A DNA stretch of 64,000 nt from the human T2T-CHM13v2.0 reference genome, Homo sapiens. Shown piece after piece: positions 22,709 to 46,645 of the stretch; position 1 is the first letter of the stretch, and each line of letters starts with the position of its first letter. The stretch lies in NCBI RefSeq assembly GCF_009914755.1, contig NC_060931.1. One strand, written 5' to 3'. Under the pieces are notes generated by a model. That model ran no database searches and was not told the origin of the DNA. It was given only the letters and a program-made list of their open reading frames with translations. A program made the position numbers and the translations under genes.

Positions 22709-23105
22709 CTGTTGCTAGAGAATCTTCCACTGATTCTTGCAAAGATTCCTTTACAGACTTTATTTTATCCAGAAATGCCAAACTATCATCATTTGGCCTC
22801 TGCATTGCATATTGCTTTTCATGATGTTGCGGAGTATATGAAACTTGTCTTGGTGATATAACCTCTTCCATGAGTTGTTCATTGTCTGGTTCCAGGCTTG
22901 AAAAGCTTTGGTCACTCTGCTCCTCAACATGTATTGCATGGCTCTCACTGAATTGTTCTATTCCAGATTCATGCTCTTCAGTTTGATCTGACTCTTGAGG
23001 CTCTTCTGAGGGAACTGGAATAGTGACAGTATCAAAAGCATCATCACTCTCTTCTGTTGAATTGACTATATTCTGAGCTTCATACTTCTCCTGTTGATTA
23101 GACAT
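22709..23105 (-). CDS. IQUB: IQUB exon 2 coding part (MSNQQEKYEAQ...SLAT, acidic N-terminus); exon starts at 23109
   Basis: ORF 22698-23105; acceptor ttcag|GAAAATG; donor ACAG|gtacta; 397 coding nt, phase 1. Confidence 0.95.
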
Positions 23106-24393
23106 TTTCCTGAATTAAGAAAAATAAACACATTTACTACATAGATGAAGTTTCTACACAAAAAATCAAATTCATTGCTAGTATAGAGTAACATTCATAA
23201 TATTCAACTAAAATGTTGCTCAATTTAAAAAAATGTTTATCTTAGTAATAGCATCAGGTTAAAAAAAAGAACCTCAAAACAATAAATTTGACAATACTCT
23301 GCAAAGAATATATGGAAAAACATTTTTTAATATCTTGTCATTTCTTATTTCTTCCTTATTTTAGTCTCATATTTTTTGAAACTTCCTTATTTAATGAAGA
23401 ATGCCTCATGAAAAGACTTTTTGAATTTCTTTTTTCTGAATACGAAACTGATGGATGCTTCTAGCATTACAAATGATTAGAAGCTCCAAGGAACCAGCCA
23501 GCTCTATAGCAAGTGTACCCTGAACAGAATACACTTTTTGTAGTAGCTCTGCTCTTACAAATTGTAGCAGAGGTCTACAGTGACCTCTGCTCCCCCCAAA
23601 TAAACCTATTACAACAAATATGGATTGAGCTTGGAGCTGACTAGACCCACAGCTATAGCAACCACGAGCTTGGGTCTGGAAGACAAGATGACAGCATCTA
23701 AAAGCTTGGGCCAGGATAGTCCAAGGCATGCCAGAGCCGGGCTGCAGATGCAGGAGCTAAATCAGAGAAACAAATGTCCAATATAGCAGGGAGCCCACCT
23801 ATAGAAGTCAGGAAGGGAAAATAGGGAAGGTAGCCCCCAGACCAGATTTCTATGGCAAAGGCAAGGGGAATATGAAACCTTGAAACAGTAGTGAGGTGGA
23901 AAAGCTCTCTCTGGGGCTTCTACTTTGAGCACAAATCTTTATGGAGAAAATAAATTCACCCACAGCCAGTGGAATTCTCTGGCTACTAAGTTATAAATTT
24001 TTAAAAATGGAAATATCTGCAATAAAAATATATAATTGTTTATCTCAGTGAATAAGCTATACAAGATTAGAGAGAGTTGAAGAGAGAATTAGTAAACTGG
24101 AAGATAAATAAAATGATTTTATATAGAATGATGCAAACAGATAAGATACAAAAAATATGAGACTAAAAGCCATGGAAAAGAAAGCCTAGCATGTTTTTGC
24201 TAAGCATATATTTTGTTGTGAGCTAAGAATGATTTTGTATTGTGAAACCAAAAAACAACAAAGATGCATTGGAGACTATGTGCGGTCTTTGCAGTCTAAA
24301 AAAAACCTGTGAAGTCCTTTTCATAAAATGTTTGCCAGCTTCTGAACTAACATATGTCAAAATGGAGTCCCAGAAGGAAAAATAGAAAGATAG

Positions 24394-24713
<320 letters not shown>

Positions 24714-27636
24714 AGGAAAAATATTTTAAAAGGTTATAGCTGAGAACTCTTCAAAACTGATAAAAGAATACGGATCCTCAGATCCAGGAAGCATAACATA
24801 AATATATACCAAACAGGTTAAATAAAAATAATTAATAGTCATATACATTGTAATGAAATTACAGACTATCGAAGACAAAGAGAAGGTCCTGAAAGTACAA
24901 TGATAAAGAATATAACATCTGCTGTTTTGAATCATATTAATTTGCTGACATTAATACAAAGAAAAGTAAAATCACTGCAGACTTATCAGAAAAATAGGAG
25001 CCAATGCAACAATAGGCTAACTGAAAGAAGAAAACTATCAACCTAGAATTGTGCACCCAGCAAAATTACCTCTCAAGAAAGAAAACAGAAGCATTTACAA
25101 GTTAGTTACTAAGTTACCACCAAGATATTTGCTCTAAAGGAACTTCTAAAGAATATACTCAAAGGAGGAAAATGATTTCAAGGGATGTCTGAAGTGCAAC
25201 TTGGAAAGGTAAATGTGAAAAATCATAAACATATGGGTAAATCCAAACAAATACTGTTAATACAAAATGATAGTAAATTGAAATATTAGACAATAATATA
25301 TAATTGAGAAGGGAAAAAAACAGACCAAACTCTCTCAAATCCTTACACTGTTTATAATTTGTTTATTTGTATAGACTTAGGGAGTACAAGTACAGTGCAG
25401 TTTTGTTACATTAATATATTGTGTAGTGGTGAAGTCTGGGCTTTTATTGAGGCCATCACCCTAATAGTATACACAGTACCCACTGAATAATTTCTCATCC
25501 CTCACACCCTTCCCATGCTCCCTTTCTTTCAAGTCTCCAATGTCTATTATTCCACTCTCTATGTTCAGGTATAGATGTTATTTCACTCCTACTTATAAGT
25601 GAGAACATGTGATATTTGACTTTCTGTTTCTGAGTTATTTCACTTAAAATAATGGCCTCCCATTCCAAGGGGGACATATTCTTAACCTTAGACTTTGTTA
25701 CTTAAATATGCACAGTTAAATCTCACTATAAGCAATAAAAAACAGAAACATAGTTTTTAAATTTCAAAACAATCAAGAGGGAAAGAAGTGGAATGAGAAA
25801 AACCTGAACAAAGCTCAATTTTAAAAAAAATCAAGAAACTTCTTCAGGCTCTCACCACAAAAAACAAAAAACAAACAAACAAAAAACAAAAAACACACAC
25901 ACAAAAACACCATTTTGATTATTTTCTCCTGTAACAGAGCTTAATGGCCTAATTAGAAAGAGAATATCATAACAAAGCCCTACCTCCTAGCAACATATTA
26001 GCCAACACCCCAAACTAGCCAAGATGGTATCTTCTAAAAACAGCAATAACAACAAAATCAAGAACTTCTGCTCTTCAGAAAACACAACTGGGAGAATAAA
26101 AAGACAAATCATAGACTGGAAGATACTTTTCACAAAATGCATATCTGATAAAGGACTTATATTCAGACTATATAGAGAATAATAAGAAAAAATAATATTT
26201 AAAAAGGGTAAAAGATTTAAACAGACACTTCACCAAAGAATACATATAGAAGGCAATTAAGCAGGGCCAGGCCTAGGTTGAGGCAAGTGAAGTGCCTAAC
26301 TGCTCTACACTTGTACTCATGTCTGAAAATGAATGCCTCCTAAAATTTTGGGCCTAGGTACATCATTTGCATCACCCTAGTCTCAGCCCTGAGAACAAAC
26401 ACATAAAAATAAGCTCAATATCATTACTCATTATAAAAATGGAATTTCAAATCACAATGAGATAGCACTACATACCTATTAGAATAATTAAAATAATATT
26501 TTTTAAAGCTCTCTAATAGCAAGTGCTAGTGAGTGCATATAAAGACAAGTGGTACACACAACAACATGGATGAAACTCAAATTATGCTCAGTGAAGAAGC
26601 CAGCTTTACTAAGGCTGTGTACTATTGACTCAATTTATATGACAAATCCTAGGGTTAGAAAACATACCAAAGCCTAAGGGTAAAGATAAGAGTTGATTAC
26701 AGAAGGATGTGGGGATTTTTTACGTGATGGAAACACTCAAAATCTCAATTGTGGTAGTGGTTATGCAAACTATATGCGTTTATTAAAATGTATAGCACTG
26801 CAGACTAAAGAGGGCAAATTTTAATGTGTCTAGATTATCCCTTACTAGAAAGATGACAAAAAGTAAAAGCAATTAATGCTCCTTTCAGTAGGGGGAAAAA
26901 AAGTGTGCTATTAAGACTAAGACTCAAGGAATTTCAATAACAATAACAATTTTTGAAAATCGACGAGGCAGGGAAAAAGAACTGATCCCAGATGTAAGGT
27001 CAGTAGTATAGGAAATGATAAATAGCAAAGAAAGTGAAAATACATGGGTAAATATAAATGCACTTTGGCTGTATAAAAATAATGTCATAAAGTCATACAC
27101 ACACAGAAATACAAAACAATCATTTGTCATATCTGTTGTGGGGGTGAAAATGATAAAAAGGGCATTTATCTTATCATAATTCATTAATCTGTAAATGTGT
27201 TTTATGTGGCTTTCTGATTTTGTGCTATACTTAATAAAGAAGCCAAATCAAAAAGAAGAAAGAGGAAGAGGAGGATGAAGTACTCTATATGTTGACAGAA
27301 GTCACACTCCAAGATTTATTAAGTGAGAAAAAGAAAGAAGGTGAAATAAGAATATATATTCATGTTTGTTTCTATTTGGATAAAGAAACACTCAGAAAAG
27401 TATGAAAGAAACTAAGAAAACTAGTTATCTGATGGGGGGCAAGGTGAGTAGGAAGTAGCCAGAACAAGGGTGGGCTCCAGAATTCTCAATGTATTATTTT
27501 TAATATTTTTAAACAATATAAATGTATTACCTGTTTTAAAAATTAGATAAGACATCATAGGGAAAACACAAGGTGGCTGGGAGAATATGTGATCAAGAGT
27601 GGTAAAGCCTCTTTAGGAATAGGAACTAAAAATTAT

Positions 27637-32450: not shown

Positions 32451-33477
32451 ATCACAGTTCTCTGTAACCTGTAGATTGTATGTATAGTAGTGCCTAAGGT
32501 TCATAGGTCCTTAATTAATGATATGAATGACCCAAATAACTACATGTTTTCAAGACATTAGTTGTTTATAAAAAGGGTGATTAGCAACTGTGTTTATGAT
32601 GGTTAGCAGTGATAAGCATTTATTCAACCTAAAAATAAGAAATGTCAAGGTTTCTAAGTCATGACTTCATTGCCATGCAGTACAGTGATTCTCAGCTTTG
32701 GTTTCCTAAAGTGGAATATCAGAAGGGCTGACTGGAGCCAGCCCACCTGAGTTTGAATCTAGACTTAACAACTTCTTGTTGAAAGAAGCAATCGGCCATG
32801 GGTCTTGAGTGTCCCTACATGTTCCTGTGGGTGTGACAAAAATGCAAGGCCATGACCACTGTTTACCCAGACCATTTCTCAGGGTTCTGTTTGCACCGAG
32901 AAACTGCAACAGCTGAGATAAACTCTTTCCCCAAAACAAAGAGCAGGCTTTCTTTGGTTTACTGTAAAAGCAGTAAATTCCCCATGTGCAAGCATCCATG
33001 TAGACTCACTGGTGTTTCCCCTGTTGGACTGGGTGGGGCTTGGGAAATTGGCACAAACTTGAAGCACTGGCTACTTCTTTTGCATGTGTCCTTTGACCCA
33101 GCATCCAAGAAACAGTGACTAATTTATTAGTTTGTACATAGGGTAAAACGCCAGACCCCTCACAGTTCCTGATACTTACTAGCTATATGACTTTGAGATA
33201 CAGAGGTTTCTTAACCTAAGTCTCATATTCCACACTTGTGAAATGGGATATTAGTAGTTTCAACATCAAAGTTTCTTCCAAGAATTAAATAAAGTAGTGT
33301 ATATAAAGTACTTAGCAAACAGTGCCTGGCACACAATAAGCATATAATAAATGTTAGCTAATTAGTAATGAACTATTTCTAAAATTTCCAAATGGCTAAT
33401 GATAATTATACATTAATAATGACTCCTAGGTATTACATAATTACTCGTTTTATAAAGTAGGAGAAAAAAATACTTTT

Positions 33478-39106
<5,629 letters not shown>

Positions 39107-40370
39107 GAAAAAAATACTTTTAAAATAAAGCATAATATTAGCAAATACTTATACCAAATTATTTAATTCTCACAGATGATATCATTATGCCCATTTTACA
39201 GATAAAGAAATTAGCACAGAGAGGTTAAGCAATATTTTCAAGAACCCAGAGCTAGTAGGCAGTATATCTGGGATCCAAATCCAGGCAGTCTGGATCCAGA
39301 ACCCATGCCCTTAACCACTTAACTGTGCTGTATCTCAGTGTAGGAGTCCATGGGGGATTGGGAGGAGAACAGAAAAGGGGTCCTGGTGATGAAGAAAAAG
39401 TCTAGAAACTGATCTCCCTGCAGATGAAAAAGCTAAGACCCAGGAATGCCTCATGGTAGGTTAGTGGTAGTCAGATCCAGAATTTAACTAACAATTTTGC
39501 CATCAGATATATTATCAGAGAATGTCTTTTATTCTTAAGTGACAAACATGACTATGATTTAAAATAGAGTAAAAAATATTCAGCAGATTTTTTTTCACCC
39601 ATCTAGAACAAGGAGCTAATTTTATTGGTTCCTAATACCCCCTCATATGTACATATTAATATGCTCTACTTGCATACATATGTGTAAACTCTCACTGCAG
39701 CAAATATTAAATGTAAATAACAAAGTACACATATTAAAAGTGTGAAATGTAAAATGTGATCTTCCAACCCAGTTTGGAAAGCTACAGTTGGAAAAGACTT
39801 TTCAAAATCATTTTTTCATTATTGTTATCATTCATTTTGTTGTTGTTTTTAAGAGAGTAATATGTGCTTACTAGAAAAAAAACTAACAGAATAGAAGGGG
39901 ATAAAATAAGAAGTAAAAGTATTTCAGACATGCTAATTTTATTTCTCATTGTTAGGCAGTTTATCTTTCCAGGAATTGTCTATAAAGCTACAATTATATA
40001 ATATATATACATTTAAATTTGTTTATGATCATATCAATGTCTTTCATAAACTATATTTCTGTTTATTTTTAAACTTTAATACTATTTTATGACTTTTTAT
40101 AATACGTGCTTAACATTTATTTTTATGTAAAATACGATTCTGCCGCATTCTTTTCAACAACTTCACAGTAACTTCTTTGCAAGGCTAAGCCACATGGTAG
40201 TCAACTGTTGTTCATTGATGGACATTTAAGCTGTCTCTAGTGTTTTTTTTTTGTTTTAATAGGATAATTTATTTTTTAAGAATCAGTTTTTAAAGTTATG
40301 TTAAAGATCGAACTTTTAAATGCATGCAATTATATATAAACAATAATCTATATTAATTTTTAAATTTTCT

Positions 40371-41264
<894 letters not shown>

Positions 41265-41437
41265 TCAAAAAATAAAAAAATTTAAAAAAGCACTTTTTAA
41301 TTTTCAGGGAAAAAAAATCTAAGGCTGGTGTTCACAATGTCAATTTTATTTATGGTTTGTTCTCACTATAAGCTTCCCTGTAATCCATTTCTACCCATTT
41401 TTTACTCTGCACAAACTTTTTACCTTTTTGCTCTTTG

Positions 41438-41719
41438 ATTTTTTTTTTTTTTTTTTTTTGAGATGGAGTTTCACTCTTTTTGCCCAGGCTGGAGTGAAGT
41501 GGCGCGATCTTGGCTTACTGCAAACTCCACCTCCCAGATTCAAGCAATTCTCCTGCCTCAGCCTCCCCAGTAGCTCAGATTATAGGCACCCCCCACCATG
41601 CCTGGCCAATTTTTGTATTTTTAGCAGAGACGGGGTTTCACCATGTTGGCCAGGCTGGTCTCAAACTCCTGACCTCAGGTGCTCCGCCCGCCTCGGCCAC
41701 CCAAAATGCTGGGATTAGG
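41438..41719 (-). mobile_element. AluS, inverted relative to the adjacent cluster
   Basis: Reverse Alu consensus. Confidence 0.93.
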
Positions 41720-43399
41720 CTGCTCTTTGAGAGCTTTACAAATTTATTTAATCCTTACAATGACTCTGAGGTAGATCTTCTTGTCTCTGTAGATAGGAAA
41801 ACTGGAACTGTCAAGAAACTTGCTTAAGATCACAGAGTGCATTAGGTTCGGATCCATAATCAAATTGGAAAAAAAGAAAAACACAAAGAACAATTAAGAC
41901 TCCAAAGCCCTAATGCATAGTCTTTGTATCCTATCACACTGTGGCATTATATATATAAAACAAAAAACTTTATAATAAAGAGAAATGTATTTTCCAAACT
42001 GTGGTTCTCCAGATAACAATGTGTCTCCGTGAGGACCATATAGTAAATACATCCCATAAAAAATGATTACCAACCAAAAGCTTGCAATTAATGTTCCAAC
42101 TAAAGAAAAAGACTCAAAGTAAAAGCATCAGCTATCCTAGGTACTGCTTGGAGGCAACACCAAACACGACACATAAATCATTGTTGAAAAAAACCGTAAA
42201 ACATAATGCTGGGTATTTAGTTATGTTGAATGCTAAAACTAATCTTTCCTTAACTAAAGGTCTCCGTCAAATGAAAAGTGTATTTTAGTCAAGTCAGGAT
42301 TTCTGTTTTGCAAACTCAAAGTCTTATATTATTAAGCATATATTCAGGTTATTTATTTTCCTGATCATAATTTTCAAATCAAATTAAGATCAAACTCCAC
42401 TGACCGTCAGGTACTGTATATTCTCATTTTGATAAATTTCAAATTAATGATAAAAATGTATTAACCTGCTGGTCAATTATACATTTTATAAATATATTTT
42501 AACCAATGACATATTATCAGTAAGTACAGATTCAACGGCAAGATTTCATTAAGAAAGTGTTTCAAGCTTCAGATGCCCAAGACTTATTTAATGTGTAAAT
42601 CTTCACCACTACAATAACCACATGGTTAAACGATCACCACTTCCATTAGCAAGCTCAAGCCTAATAAGTGATCTCCTGGGACTTCAGCACAGAGGTTTTC
42701 TAATTTTATTCCTCCACTCAATGTGGCTATTCTCCCTTATCTATTCACGCTGGCAAAGCTTCTAGTTAAACTGGAATTAGTAACTATTTGATGATAATAA
42801 TTAACATATACTGAGTGCTTCCGATGGCGCAGTTAATTCTTACAGTTGATAAAAGTGTGGCACAAAAAGGTTAATCAAGTAGCAGAGGCAGGATTTGAAC
42901 CCAGGAATTCTGGTTCCAGGGCCCGGATTCGGAGTTACAAAGGTGAGTAAACTGAAAAGAGTCCTACTTTTATTGTCATTGCTTTCTAATAAAAATTATT
43001 TTTTTCTTCCAATTGTTTAAATCTCTTCTCATTCTCTATTTAAATATTAGGCGTTCATTTAAATATTAGGCGTCTACCTTACAGTAGGACATCTTTAAAC
43101 AACGTAAAAAAGGAAAGCTTTGTCTTCACCTTCACACATACCGGTCTGCCCATAAATTTTGCAATCCAGTTCTGCCTGATTCTAAACTGCTTGTCTCTTG
43201 AAGCGAATGCCTTAAAAAGTGACACTGGGATCAGGATAGTTATCTCCATCCATCCTCCCTCAGAAAAACAACTATATTCGAGTAATTCTTGGGACCACTG
43301 AGAACAATACACAGACCTTTGGGTAACTTCAAGACAAAAAAGGCAAAAAGTCGGGGAGAAGGTGTGGGAGGATGATTTTCCCCTTCTAAACGTAAGGTA

Positions 43400-43950
43400 T
43401 AAAAGGGCTCAGAAAGCGGAAAAAGAACCCTAAAAAGCAAGGTGCGGGACGGCGTGAGGGACCACACATTGGGCGCTCCGCCCAAGGGGTCCGGCTCCTT
43501 CTCCGCGGCGATGGCGCGTCCTTGGGCTCAGCAACCCTCCTGAAGACACCTAACCTCCTCCTTCTCCAGCCTGCCCCTCTGGGGCCTGCGAGCCCCGTCC
43601 CGGGCCGGGGGTCGGAAGCCGTGCCATGTAGGACCCCGAAAAGGCCCCCAAGCTTGGCGCGGAAGGCGCCGCCAGTGACCGGCTGCGGCTGGGGGCGGAG
43701 GCCGGCAGTTGCTCGGAGCTCCGGCGGGTCAGGAGGTGACGGGAGGAGGAGGAGGCAGGAGGAAGAAAGGGGGGTTGGGAGGTAGCGTCCGGTAGGTCTG
43801 CGCAGACAGCGCTGCCAGACCTCTGACTCCCCCAGTCCTGCCGCCGCCGATAGCCCCACAAGGCGACATGGGAAGTCCGCCGGAGCAGAGGGGAGAAAAT
43901 TCAAAACGAGTCTACTCAACCTCGTCTTGGCTCCGAGGCCCCGCCATGCA
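43400..43950. promoter_or_regulatory. Intronic CpG island at the 5' end of the retrocopy
   Basis: High GC and CpG density ending abruptly at the TSD. Confidence 0.8.
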
Positions 43951-45257
43951 GACCCCTCTAGTTTTTTACTATTAAAAATAGTGCTGCAACAAACATTTTA
44001 TACATCTATCTCTGTATATATGTGTAAGTATACTGAAAATGAGTTCCCAGAATTAGAATGGACAAGTCAAAGGGCATACAGATCTTAATTTTGTTAAATT
44101 CCATCAAACTGTTTTCTATTATAGCCCCAAGAAGTTCCCCTTGACTGTTTCCTTACATCCTCATATTGTTTTATGAGTCCTAATAATTAAATATCCCTTT
44201 GTTGTGTGTTGCCCTTATATTTCCCATTGTATGTTTGATGTTGTTTTTCTCTTACTATATAAAAGTTTTAGATTGTTAGGTAGTGACATTTATCAATCTT
44301 TTTGCTTATGAGAGTTTCCAAATTTCCTGACATGCTTCGAAACACCTTCTCACAATGAAACATAAATACATAAATTCATCCATAAATGCATAAATGAGAC
44401 AGATCTGTAAATATTGATAGAAAACAACTGGACACACAGTCTTAAGTGTAAAAGCCAATCACAGAAGAGTATGCACAATGTTACAGGTGTAACTACATAT
44501 TTGCGTATGTCTAAAACACCTGTGGAAGGTGGCCTGGAGATGGGGAGAAATGGGTAGATGGAGGATTTTCACTCTTCATTCTTTTTACTATTCGAACTAT
44601 TTTTTTATGTATTATCTATTCAAATGAAAATGTTTAAATCTTATTGTTTAAAAAGCAACCTCTATCATGTTTGCATACAAAAAAGTCTCCCTTTTCACCT
44701 ACATTTCATTCCCTACCATTTAAAGCTTAACACATTTAGAATGTAGTATAATTAGTGAGGCAGGGATCCAGTATTGCCTTCTACCAAATAGATCTGTTGA
44801 ATTTTTAGGTTTGTTAAGAGGCAAAGACCAAGGGTGGAGAGGAAGGAGTGAGAGTGCCAGGTGAGGAAAGTCTAAAATCTCTCGACTTAATATGAGAATG
44901 GTGGCCACGGAAGGCTAAGAGTCTCTAGTGCCAGGTGTGGGTTATACACACATCTTCTATGCAATTACCGTGACAAGCACCCAGGGTGTGAGGTGAGGTG
45001 TACCTCCTAGCTTGATGCTGCTGGTTCAAGTCCCAAATCAGAGAGGGGAAGCCAAAAAAGGAGCCGAGAAAGATGAGATGCTTCGCACGGTTTTTAAAGT
45101 AAAGTCGGAACATTCCTGACCGACTAGGCAGCCCCAGGCGCTCAGGTGGGAATCACTGCCCAGCACACAGAACCCAGAGTCCAGCGCGGCTGTCACCGGC
45201 TCTAGGCTGGATCTAAGCGTCGGACCAGGAGGCCGCAGTCAAAATCTGTTCTCCTAC

Positions 45258-45357
45258 CTGTGTACGAAACCAAACTATTCTCGTCGAAGTGCTTTCCCAG
45301 GCTCCTAAGACGCAGCTTCCATACTCGCCGCGTTCTCAGCTGTTGGTCGTATCCTAG
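45258..45357 (-). other. IQUB: IQUB non-coding exon 1 (5' boundary approximate)
   Basis: Donor CAG|GTAGGA at 45258/45257 inside a CpG island; X-box at the probable TSS; exon 2 starts 4 nt before the ATG, so an upstream non-coding exon is required. Confidence 0.75.
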
Positions 45358-45361
45358 CAAC
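45349..45361 (-). promoter_or_regulatory. RFX X-box (GTTGCTAGGATAC)
   Basis: Matches the RFX palindromic consensus at the likely TSS of a motile-cilia gene. Confidence 0.7.
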
Positions 45362-45409
45362 GGCCCTGGCACCACCTCTTCCTGCCGGAGCACGGCAGGG
45401 GTGGGAAGG

Positions 45410-46007
45410 AGAGGAGCCAGAGGCGGGTGGGGGGGAGGAGCCAGAAGAGGGCAGCGGGGAGGGGCCGGGAAGGAGGAGCGCGGCAGGGTAGGGGGAGGAG
45501 CCAAAGACTGGGGGCGGGGCCGGGAAGGAGGAGGGCGGCAGAAGAGAAGGGGATGAGCCAGAGGCGGGGAGGTGGGGCCGGGAAGGAGGAGTGCGGCAGG
45601 AGAGAAGAGGAGTAGCCAGAGGCGGAGGGGCGGTGTCGGGAAGGAGGAGCGCGGCAGGAAATAAGGGAAGGAGCTAGAGGCGGGCTGGGGGCCGGGGTCT
45701 GGAAGGAGGATCGCGGTAGGGAAGAAGAGGAGCCAGAGGAGGGGGATGGGGGCTGCAAAGGAGGAACGCGATAGGGAAAAGGGGGAGGAGCCAGAGGCGA
45801 GGGGGCGGGGAGAAGAAACATGGCAGGAGAAAGGGGAGGAGCCAGAGGCGAAGAGACAGGAAGAGGGACGCGTCAGGGAGAAGGGGAGGAGTCAGAGGCG
45901 AGCGGGCGTGGAGGAGGGAAGCGGCAGGGAGAAGGGGCGGGGCCAGAGGCGAAGGGGCGGGGAGGAGGGACGCGGCAGGGAGAAGGGGAGGAGCCAGAGG
46001 CGGAGGC
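45410..46007 (+). repeat. Degenerate purine-rich minisatellite, about 11 units of 50-60 bp
   Basis: GGAGCCAGAGGCG-like anchor recurs at 45437, 45497, 45554, 45612, 45670, 45729, 45787, 45838, 45888, 45939 and 45990. Confidence 0.85.
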
Positions 46008-46348
46008 TGTTACCAACTGGCTACCTAGATCCAAGTGAATCAGGACACTAACTTCTCTCCAAGATCTTTTACACTTGTGAAACGGCACAGCTCTCTAAAC
46101 CAAACACTGACAGCAGTTTAATTTTACAGATATAAAAAAAATCCGAGTCAGAGAAATCATCACGATGAAGTCAGAGGCGAGAAACTGTCAGGTGCCTACT
46201 TGCTTTTGTTAAACTAACAACTTGGCTCTCAGCTTCCTGGCAGCCAAAGAGAAAAGGGAGATAGTAGCTATCAAATAATTCTGCTTAGAAGAACTTTTGT
46301 TAATCACTAAATTAGTTAATAAACTAAATTTTGTCTAACAACAAATTC

Positions 46349-46645
<297 letters not shown>

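What the first reader, a model, noticed from the sequence alone, without database searches (positions are those of the whole stretch)
43075..43955. Imported CpG island as a candidate second IQUB promoter or intronic DMR
Seen: the CpGs have not decayed, the block is in sense with IQUB 1.3 kb downstream of exon 1, and it offers minus-strand donors (GAG|GTTAGG at 43555, CCG|GTATGT at 43142, AAG|GTAGAC near 43078). The IQUB ATG is in exon 2, so any of these spliced to 23109 would still encode full-length IQUB. Established: intronic retrocopy CpG islands have become alternative promoters and imprinted DMRs (PPP1R26P1 in RB1, Mcts2 in H13, Nap1l5 in Herc3). Inference: the retrocopy may have given a cilia/sperm gene a lineage-specific, RFX-independent promoter or an allele-specific methylation switch.
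Basis: partly seen in the sequence, partly recalled or inferred. Interest (0 to 1): 0.8.

Follow-up and report, generated by a model that had tools for sequence, protein, structure and literature searches.

The report
CARF retrocopy CpG island inside IQUB
A young, ape-age retrocopy of the unspliced 5' end of the CARF gene landed in the first intron of the sperm/cilia gene IQUB and brought along most of CARF's CpG island and its splice donors, which the reference annotation already shows as alternative IQUB first exons; it is a clean new example of a known kind of event, and its imprinting is untested and unlikely.

Summary
Window 43291-43954 is a true CpG island (47 CpGs, o/e 0.73, against 0.23 for the window). 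It is imported. Window 40254-43954 (minus strand, 3.7 kb, not 0.88 kb) is collinear with chr2:203393744-203397477 at 98.4% identity. The chr7 copy ends after AATAAA plus an A-tail, has a 12-14 bp target-site duplication and an extra 5' G. It is therefore an L1-type retrocopy of an unspliced, intronically polyadenylated transcript. The source TSS lies 49 kb upstream, on the same strand, of the genome's only ALS2CR8-domain exons, so the parent is CARF.

The copy carries 47 of the parent island's 65 CpGs and none of its upstream promoter. All 47 island CpGs are identical in both copies, while 14 of 48 CpGs elsewhere in the retrocopy differ (p=4e-5). This argues that the island has stayed unmethylated in the germline.

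RefSeq (hub table) already starts IQUB transcripts at 43714 and 43938/43940 and uses donors 43921, 43555, 43142 and 43130. The "second promoter" is thus annotated, though I could not see expression data.

No evidence bears on a DMR or imprint. In a published survey, 1 of 104 such islands was imprinted. Most retrocopy-derived leaders add uORFs that overlap the IQUB ATG. Verdict: new member of a known kind.

The parts
43956..43967 (-). 5' copy of the target-site duplication (AAAAAACTAGAG), in AT-rich IQUB intron 1
   Evidence: same string, with a 2-base indel, follows the A-tail at the 3' end; absent from chr2
43955..43955 (-). extra G between the TSD and the first base homologous to chr2 (possibly copied from the mRNA cap; inference)
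   Evidence: boundary comparison; homology starts at 43954
40254..43954 (-). body of the retrocopy: unspliced 5' end of the chr2 parent (CARF), including parental Alus
   Evidence: collinear with G000:C2:203393744-203397477(+), 57 substitutions in 3680 aligned bases (1.55%), one 50-bp and several small indels; one search places the parent
43291..43954 (-). imported CpG island: 47 CpGs, the downstream about 72% of the parent's 900-bp, 65-CpG island
43921..43940 (-). RefSeq alternative IQUB first exon (start 43940 or 43938, donor GAG|GTTGAG after 43921), 15-17 nt inside the retrocopy
   Evidence: hub table; one search shows the GT donor and no AG before the start; identical in both copies
43555..43714 (-). 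RefSeq alternative IQUB first exon starting at 43714 (241 nt inside the retrocopy), donor GAG|GTTAGG after 43555; longer forms run on to 43142 or 43130
   Evidence: hub table; one copy-specific base at 43630
43130..43210 (-). retrocopy-derived internal leader exon: acceptor ...TTTTTAAG|G at 43210, donors after 43142 (CCG|GTATGT) or 43130 (AAG|GTGAAG)
   Evidence: hub table; 43142-43210 is identical in both copies and 43132 differs
   Evidence: hub table lacks it
40268..40273 (-). AATAAA polyadenylation signal shared with chr2, 14 nt before the end of homology
40243..40253 (-). remnant poly(A) tail (C then A10), present in chr7 only
40235..40248 (-). 3' copy of the target-site duplication (AAAAAACACTAGAG; its A-run merges with the tail)
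22709..23109 (-). IQUB exon 2, with the ATG at 23105; the common acceptor for canonical and retrocopy-derived leaders
   Evidence: hub table
45258..45361 (-). canonical IQUB exon 1, in its own CpG island (45021-46100)
   Evidence: hub table

Best explanation
About 6-12 million years ago (inference from divergence), L1 machinery reverse-transcribed a capped, unspliced CARF transcript. That transcript had been polyadenylated 3.7 kb downstream of the CARF TSS, inside an intron. The copy was inserted in sense orientation into IQUB intron 1, 1.3 kb downstream of exon 1. Because the template began at the TSS, the copy carries the transcribed about 72% of CARF's CpG island but none of its upstream promoter. 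Because the template was unspliced, it also carries functional 5' splice sites and one acceptor; that these are CARF's own sites is inferred. The imported CpG-dense DNA has stayed unmethylated in the germline (inferred from complete CpG retention). It behaves as a second CpG-island promoter. Transcripts start at about 43940 and 43714, use the imported donors (43921, 43555, 43142/43130), and splice to IQUB exon 2, encoding unchanged IQUB behind a new, mostly uORF-bearing leader. The 43714 start has 240 bp of parental sequence upstream of it. It is best read as a downstream parental promoter that was carried inside the transcript. Shown: retrocopy origin, extent, parent locus, CpG retention, splice-site sequences, ORF compatibility. 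Taken from annotation, not from data I saw: the transcript starts. Inferred: germline hypomethylation, promoter autonomy, age.
For: Retrocopy: an 881-base query finds exactly 2 places in the genome, itself and C2:203393744-203394623 at 99%. Collinearity extends to window 40254. The chr7 side alone has AATAAA followed by an A-tail, a TSD and an extra 5' G, while chr2 continues as CpG island upstream and unrelated sequence downstream (coordinates). Parent: all 5 genome matches to Pfam ALS2CR8 (PF15299) lie at C2:203442806-203455910 on the + strand, 49-62 kb downstream of the source start on the same strand. Island share: the parent island is 203393510-203394409 with 65 CpG, and the copy starts at 203393744. 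CpG retention: island 47 of 47 identical; rest of the retrocopy 34 of 48 identical, 14 different, plus 1 site lost differently in both; Fisher p=4.0e-5. If the chr7 island had decayed at the mean per-lineage rate seen outside it, 7.2 losses would be expected and P(0)=4e-4. Non-CpG divergence in the island (3 of 511) is not significantly below the rest (38 of 2977, p=0.26), so homogenisation by gene conversion is not required. Promoter use: the RefSeq first exons in the hub table start at positions not preceded by AG and end at GT donors. Precedent: about 3% of expressed retrocopies inherit a parental promoter carried inside the transcript (PMC4772013, passages read). Intronic retrocopy islands can act as host-gene promoters (PMC3839921 and PMC3760807, abstracts in the listing).
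Against: I saw no CAGE, RNA-seq, chromatin or methylation data. The transcript starts rest wholly on the hub's RefSeq table, whose models may be predicted ones. Exons 43921-43940 and 43142-43210 are base-for-base identical to chr2, so CARF exon-junction reads would multimap here and could have inflated support for that part of the models. The copy lacks the parent's upstream 234 bp, including a GCGCNNGCGC palindrome 9-18 bp before the parental TSS (motif recalled), so the start at about 43940 has no parental promoter upstream of it. With the chr7-specific CpG loss rate outside the island (3 of 49), zero losses in 47 is only marginally unlikely (P=0.05). Base rate: about 75% of 104 comparable imported intronic islands are fully methylated in monocytes (PMC4122923).
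Confidence: 0.6

Rival explanations
1. Passenger island. The retrocopy is real but functionally inert or nearly so. The island is methylated in most tissues, as most imported intronic islands are. The annotated starts reflect rare noise transcripts or model-building helped by multimapping CARF reads. The imported donors and acceptor matter mainly as occasional cassette exons in transcripts from the canonical promoter.
For: About 75% of 104 imported intronic islands were more than 80% methylated in monocytes (PMC4122923). Two of the annotated exons are identical to the chr2 parent. The copy lacks the parental upstream promoter. The leaders carry uORFs overlapping the main ATG, which speaks against a leader shaped for IQUB output. 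The selected RefSeq transcript uses the canonical exon 1 (hub table).
Against: 47 of 47 CpGs are retained while 14 of 48 neighbouring CpGs in the same insert differ, which fits poorly with germline methylation. Three RefSeq exon forms share one start at 43714, and two more start at 43938/43940 (hub table). Junctions to IQUB exon 2 cannot come from chr2.
Confidence: 0.3
2. Imprinted or allele-specific DMR of the RB1/CpG85 type. The island is an intragenic CpG island 1.3 kb downstream of an active promoter. It is methylated by transcription run-through in oocytes, stays unmethylated in sperm, and drives a paternal-allele IQUB transcript or interferes with the canonical one.
For: The architecture matches RB1: a retrocopy island in a 5' intron, sense orientation, host-gene transcripts starting in it (abstracts of PMC3839921 and PMC4537222). 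CpG retention is compatible with a maternal-only mark. The published survey could not have seen it, because it considered only islands in introns between coding exons and this one lies in a 5'-UTR intron (PMC4122923 section 14). IQUB is absent from its table of 104.
Against: There is no methylation or allelic evidence of any kind. Only 1 of 104 comparable islands is imprinted, and 2 others showed sequence-dependent allelic differences. No paper pairs IQUB (whole word) with 'differentially methylated' in a relevant way: 2 hits, both unrelated by title and abstract in the listing and not opened. Of the 19 hits for IQUB with 'imprinted' (word-start match), none was a human imprinting study by title and abstract. 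Supplementary tables of imprinting screens were not searched.
Confidence: 0.04
3. DNA-level segmental duplication rather than retroposition, or the reverse direction (chr7 as source).
For: The block is collinear with genomic DNA, keeps introns and Alus, and shows no splicing.
Against: Homology starts inside a CpG island and ends 14 nt after an AATAAA. The chr7 copy alone adds an A-tail and is flanked by a duplicated AT-rich target. The chr2 flanks continue the island upstream and the CARF gene downstream.
Confidence: 0.02

Closest known systems
PPP1R26P1 / CpG85 in intron 2 of human RB1
   Same: [quoted passage not shown] It is primate-specific (abstracts of PMC3839921, PMC3760807 and PMC4537222 in the listing).
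   Different: CpG85 is a maternally methylated gametic DMR that imprints RB1; nothing of the kind is shown here. The PPP1R26P1 island comes from within the parental mRNA, whereas here it is the parent's own promoter island downstream of the TSS. Here the template was unspliced, so splice donors came along. The alternative IQUB transcripts keep the full ORF.
The 104 human intronic CpG islands with a second genomic copy (Rademacher et al. 2014, PMC4122923)
   Same: [quoted passage not shown]
   Different: This island is not on that list, because it lies in a 5'-UTR intron and the survey used introns between coding exons. Its methylation state is unknown, whereas theirs were measured.
Parental promoter inheritance by retrocopies (Carelli et al. 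2016, PMC4772013)
   Same: A transcript from an upstream parental TSS carries a downstream alternative promoter into the new locus (their Fig. 2A, about 3% of expressed retrocopies; passages read). The 43714 start, 241 nt inside the copy, fits this.
   Different: Here the inherited promoter drives the host gene's coding exons, not the retrocopy's own ORF; the copy has no CARF coding sequence. That the parent uses the equivalent start was not checked.
Mouse retrogene-associated imprinted loci (Mcts2/H13, Nap1l5/Herc3 and others)
   Same: Intronic retrocopies with promoter CpG islands that alter host-gene transcripts. I saw only the listing and abstract of PMC1796624; the gene pairs themselves are recalled.
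   Different: Those are intact retrogenes with maternal germline methylation that act on host polyadenylation. This is a non-coding 5' fragment feeding the host's ORF.
L1MdTf intronic alternative promoter of mouse Iqub
   Same: An independent retroelement-derived intronic promoter producing chimeric Iqub transcripts (PMC13503937, passages read).
   Different: A different species, a different element (L1 antisense promoter), and a different place (upstream of exon 7, giving a truncated transcript).

Membership tests
L1-mediated retrocopy | 3' poly(A) tract immediately after the parental cleavage site, absent from the parent locus | tested here: met
   C then A10 at 40253-40243, following AATAAA at 40273-40268; chr2 continues with unrelated sequence
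L1-mediated retrocopy | Target-site duplication flanking the insert, A-rich at its start | tested here: met
   AAAAAACTAGAG at 43967-43956 and AAAAAACACTAGAG at 40248-40235, differing by a 2-base indel
L1-mediated retrocopy | Corresponds to a transcript of the parent (starts at a TSS, same strand as the parent gene) | tested here: inconclusive
   The copy starts inside the parent CpG island, on the strand of the ALS2CR8 exons 49 kb downstream, with an extra 5' G. The parent's annotated TSS was not available to me.
Processed pseudogene (spliced retrocopy) | Introns of the parent removed | tested here: not met
   3.7 kb collinear with chr2 genomic DNA including Alus; the only large gap is a 50-bp deletion inside an Alu. 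It is an unspliced (semi-processed) retrocopy.
CpG island (length >=200 bp, GC >=0.5, observed/expected >=0.6; criteria recalled) | All three thresholds | tested here: met
   43291-44020: 730 bp, GC 0.60, o/e 0.73
Retrocopy-derived alternative promoter of a host gene (RB1 CpG85 type) | Island lies in a retrocopy within a host intron, in sense | tested here: met
   hub gene table
Retrocopy-derived alternative promoter of a host gene (RB1 CpG85 type) | Host-gene transcripts initiate in the island and splice to host exons | not testable with these tools
   Only the hub's RefSeq exon table says so. I confirmed that the listed starts are not acceptors and that the ends are GT donors. No expression data are accessible.
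Imprinted gametic DMR | Parent-of-origin-specific methylation, established in one germline | not testable with these tools
   No methylation data. Literature searches gave nothing relevant among the hits: listings by title and abstract, with three papers opened for their IQUB passages.

The most novel reading that the evidence does not exclude
The imported CARF island is an ape-specific, germline-protected promoter that gives IQUB a second, CARF-like regulatory input. Because it is an intragenic island transcribed through from the canonical promoter 1.3 kb upstream, it may acquire oocyte-specific methylation. It would then be an unrecognised human maternal DMR, or an allele-specific switch between a uORF-free and a uORF-laden IQUB leader. 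The one systematic survey would have missed it because it sits in a 5'-UTR intron.
Probability: 0.05. Interest if true: 0.75.

Novelty: new member of a known kind. Interest (0 to 1): 0.4.

Why it matters
The case shows, with base-level clarity, how one retroposition event can hand a host gene a ready-made CpG-island promoter together with working splice donors. The donors came along because the template RNA was unspliced and prematurely polyadenylated. It adds a recent, lineage-restricted regulatory change to IQUB, a gene the literature listings here tie to sperm flagella and male infertility (titles). It exposes a blind spot, 5'-UTR introns, in the published catalogue of imported intronic islands. 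The paralog comparison (island CpGs against flanking CpGs of the same insert) is a sequence-only test of past germline methylation that could be applied to other retrocopy islands. The event type itself is well known, so the finding is incremental unless allele-specific methylation is found.

Tried and rejected
- The first own-genome search did not complete. The same request was answered later.
- An 8.5-kb query (window 36000-44500) was swamped by a young L1 at the low-coordinate end and did not list the chr2 match. I fetched chr2 directly instead and aligned it locally.
- I tried to place WDR12, which I recall as CARF's head-to-head neighbour, with Pfam NLE (PF08154). There were 4 matches, none on chr2, so a bidirectional parental promoter remains unconfirmed.
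- A-to-I editing signature in the copy: the parent A / copy G and parent G / copy A classes looked balanced by eye in the listing. I rejected it without a formal count.
- Gene conversion as the reason for the clean island: non-CpG divergence in the island is not significantly lower than in the rest (p=0.26). It is not needed, but not excluded either.
- Full X-box pattern (recalled consensus) in either promoter: 1 match in the whole window, at 25105, and none at 42900-46200.
- Rfam on 40000-46500: 0 families at gathering score.
- Literature: IQUB+CARF as whole words, 0 papers. The word-start version gave 26 false hits such as carfilzomib. IQUB+retrocop, 0 papers. IQUB+'differentially methylated', 2 papers, unrelated by title and abstract, not opened. 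IQUB+methylation, 34 papers, 30 listed; of these I opened two here, plus PMC13503937 already. The twin study's hit is the NDUFA5 promoter island, not this one.
- Supplements of PMC4122923: IQUB, CARF and ALS2CR8 are absent from the 3 spreadsheets. The index html and the PDF supplement were unreadable.
Full report
**What is in the sequence.** Window 43075-43955 has GC 0.57, 51 CpGs and an observed/expected CpG ratio of 0.71. The dense part, 43350-43955, has GC 0.65, 47 CpGs and o/e 0.73. A 200-bp scan with the usual thresholds (recalled) calls one island at 43291-44020. The window as a whole has o/e 0.23. A second, separate island (45021-46100) surrounds the canonical IQUB exon 1.

The IQUB ATG is at 23105, four bases into exon 2.

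**The island is imported, and the block is larger than reported.** The 881 bases find exactly two places in the genome: themselves and C2:203393744-203394623 on the + strand, at 99% identity. Local alignment of the window against 20 kb of chr2 shows collinear homology from window 43954 down to 40254, matching chr2:203393744-203397477. It comes in two pieces of 97.98% (2963 columns) and 97.04% (743 columns).

A global alignment gives 57 substitutions in 3680 aligned bases (1.55%) and 75 indel columns, 50 of them in one deletion inside an Alu. The imported block is therefore 3.7 kb. 43075 is not a boundary.

**It is a retrocopy of an unspliced transcript, copied from chr2 to chr7.**
- At the 3' end, both loci share AATAAA (window 40273-40268) and 14 more bases.
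- After that point the chr7 copy has C plus ten A's and then ACTAGAG, while chr2 continues with unrelated sequence.
- At the 5' end, the chr7 flank reads AAAAAACTAGAG, then one extra G, then the homology begins.
- Upstream of that point, chr2 continues as CpG island.

A poly(A) signal, tail remnant, 12-14 bp A-rich target-site duplication and an extra 5' G are the hallmarks of L1-mediated retroposition of a capped, polyadenylated RNA. That the extra G derives from the cap is my inference. Because the copy is collinear with genomic DNA and contains the parent's Alus, the template was an unspliced RNA polyadenylated at an intronic site. This is why splice donors exist in the copy at all; a spliced template would have lost them.

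**The parent.** All five genome matches to the Pfam ALS2CR8 domain (PF15299), the family that defines CARF, lie at C2:203442806-203455910 on the + strand. That is 49-62 kb downstream of the source start and on its strand. I therefore read the parent as the 5' end of CARF. No annotation of chr2 was available to me, so an intervening non-coding gene is not formally excluded.

The parental island spans 203393510-203394409 (900 bp, 65 CpGs). The copy begins at 203393744, so it took the downstream 47 CpGs and left behind 234 bp with about 18 CpGs. The part left behind includes a GCGCNNGCGC palindrome 9-18 bp upstream of the parental start. The copy retains an ATGGCGG core at +8, two GGGCGG boxes, a CGTCA and a CCAAT. 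These motifs are recalled consensus strings and are weak evidence.

**Age.** Non-CpG divergence between the copies is 41 of 3488 (1.18%, 95% CI 0.84-1.59%). This is about the human-chimpanzee genome-wide figure as I recall it. The insertion is therefore of hominine age, roughly 6-12 Myr depending on the rate assumed. It may or may not be shared with chimpanzee and gorilla. No primate genomes were available to test this.

**A sequence-only test of germline methylation.** Within the island, 47 of 47 CpGs are identical in both copies. In the rest of the same retrocopy, only 34 of 48 are identical. Of the 14 that differ, 9 are TG/CA in chr2, 2 are TG/CA in chr7 and 3 are other changes. One further site decayed differently in both copies. 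Fisher's exact test gives p=4.0e-5.

The 29% difference outside the island is what methylated CpGs should show at this age (inference), so the insert is old enough for decay to be visible.
- If the chr7 island had decayed at the mean per-lineage rate seen outside it, 7.2 losses would be expected and P(0)=4e-4.
- With the lower chr7-only rate (3 of 49), P(0)=0.05.

Non-CpG divergence in the island (3 of 511) is not significantly below the rest (38 of 2977, p=0.26). Gene conversion is therefore not needed to explain the clean island, though it is not excluded. I conclude, with moderate confidence, that the imported island has been largely unmethylated in the germline since it arrived. A mark confined to oocytes would not be excluded by this test.

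**Promoter use.** The hub's RefSeq table lists IQUB exons 43921-43938/43940, 43555-43714, 43142-43714, 43130-43714, 43142-43210 and 43130-43210. In one search I checked the sequence around each of them.
- 43714 and 43940/43938 are not preceded by AG, so they are transcript starts.
- 43921, 43555, 43142 and 43130 are followed by GT.
- 43210 is preceded by a pyrimidine run and AG.

The annotation thus already contains two start clusters inside the imported island, 15-17 nt and 241 nt from the retrocopy's 5' end.

The 43714 start has 240 bp of parental sequence upstream. It fits the inherited downstream parental promoter route described for about 3% of expressed retrocopies (PMC4772013, passages read). 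The start at about 43940 has no parental promoter upstream. Only the AT-rich chr7 flank lies there, including a T/A-rich run 22-40 nt upstream. Whether that run acts like a TATA element is speculation.

Two cautions apply. First, I saw no expression data. Second, exons 43921-43940 and 43142-43210 are identical to chr2, so CARF junction reads would multimap to them. Only junctions into IQUB exon 2, or reads over 43949, 43767, 43630, 43225 or 43132, are locus-specific.

**Consequence for the protein.** Any of these leaders spliced to 23109 leaves the IQUB ORF intact. However, I built the leaders from the listed exons, and every one except the 20-nt exon joined directly to exon 2 carries out-of-frame uATGs whose uORFs run across the IQUB ATG. 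There are one to six uATGs in leaders of 93-589 nt. The canonical leader has a single short in-frame uORF that ends before the ATG. The actual exon combinations in RefSeq were not given to me. The new leaders probably translate IQUB less efficiently (inference).

**DMR or imprinting.** Nothing I could run bears on this. The closest systematic study found 104 human intronic islands with a second genomic copy.
- About 75% were more than 80% methylated in monocytes and about 15% were unmethylated.
- Five were intermediate, and only the RB1 island was imprinted (PMC4122923, sections 14, 15 and 17 read).

IQUB is not among the 104 (supplementary table S3 read in full; no hit for IQUB, CARF or ALS2CR8 in the three readable spreadsheets). 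That is expected, because the survey took only islands in introns between coding exons, and this one lies in a 5'-UTR intron.

Full-text searches gave the following.
- No paper names both IQUB and CARF.
- No paper pairs IQUB with retrocop*.
- Nothing relevant turned up for IQUB with 'differentially methylated', 'imprinted' or 'methylation' among the listings by title and abstract, nor in the three papers I opened for their IQUB passages.

Supplementary tables of imprinting and placental-DMR screens were not searched and could hold the locus. I put the imprinted or allele-specific reading at about 4-5%.

**RFX.** The full X-box pattern (recalled) occurs nowhere in 42900-46200. The canonical TSS overlaps an AGCAAC half-site with a one-mismatch partner. 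The imported 43714 start also sits on an AGCAAC half-site. 'RFX-independent' can be neither supported nor refuted.

**Comparison and verdict.** In how it works, this is the RB1/PPP1R26P1 type of event: a retrocopy island in a 5' intron starting host-gene transcripts. It lacks any evidence for the imprint that makes RB1 special.

In membership, it passes the tests for an L1-mediated retrocopy (tail and TSD met) and for a CpG island. It fails the 'introns removed' criterion of a classical processed pseudogene. It is an unspliced 5' fragment without coding sequence, which probably explains why no pseudogene is listed in the hub table.

The alternative first exons are already in RefSeq. Their origin from CARF, the co-import of island and donors, and the CpG-retention evidence do not appear in the literature I could search. 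Verdict: a real feature and a new member of a known kind. Interest is moderate (0.4), and would rise substantially only if allele-specific methylation were found.

Noticed in passing
window 40254-43290 versus G000:C2:203394410-203397477: Outside the island, CpG-to-TG/CA differences are lopsided: 9 losses on the chr2 parent against 2 on the chr7 copy (binomial p=0.065; 10 against 3 with the doubly decayed site, p=0.09). This may be chance, or the copy's surroundings may be less methylated in the germline than CARF intron 1.
   Followed up: partly
window 43962-43980 (minus strand): The AT-rich target flank just upstream of the retrocopy (a T/A run ending in the TSD) lies 22-40 nt upstream of the annotated start at 43940. 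L1 target sites are A/T-rich, so a chance TATA-like element next to an imported island is conceivable.
   Followed up: no
window 45341-45361 (+ strand): The canonical IQUB TSS overlaps an X-box-like sequence: an AGCAAC half-site with a partner half one mismatch off the recalled RFX consensus. No full-pattern X-box occurs within 42900-46200.
   Followed up: partly
window about 36000-37800 (part of masked block 33453-37625): The L1 in IQUB intron 1 matches dozens of copies genome-wide at 96-98% identity over about 1.6-1.8 kb, so it belongs to a young L1 subfamily. Mouse Iqub separately has an intronic L1MdTf acting as an alternative promoter (PMC13503937).
   Followed up: no
It is present in both the chr7 copy and chr2, with one substitution at 43064, so it predates the retroposition.
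   Followed up: yes
window 40996 / G000:C2:203396694-203396743: The chr7 copy lacks 50 bp inside an Alu relative to chr2. A T-run is 9 bases longer in chr7 at 40509-40517, and a GT-rich microsatellite differs at 41230-41245.
   Followed up: no
window 45400-46000: A strongly G- and A-skewed stretch on the + strand (GC skew about +0.6, AT skew up to +0.87) lies immediately upstream of the canonical IQUB promoter. It coincides with the RefSeq 'silencer' features and the lncRNA LOC124901740 first exon (hub table).
   Followed up: no
G000:C4:106065313-106065510, C12:84427994-84428191, C15:98401028-98401225: The Pfam NLE domain matches as single uninterrupted stretches at three places (one with 4 stops), besides a partial match on C17. 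These look like intronless copies of an NLE-domain gene. No match was reported on chr2, where I had expected WDR12.
   Followed up: no
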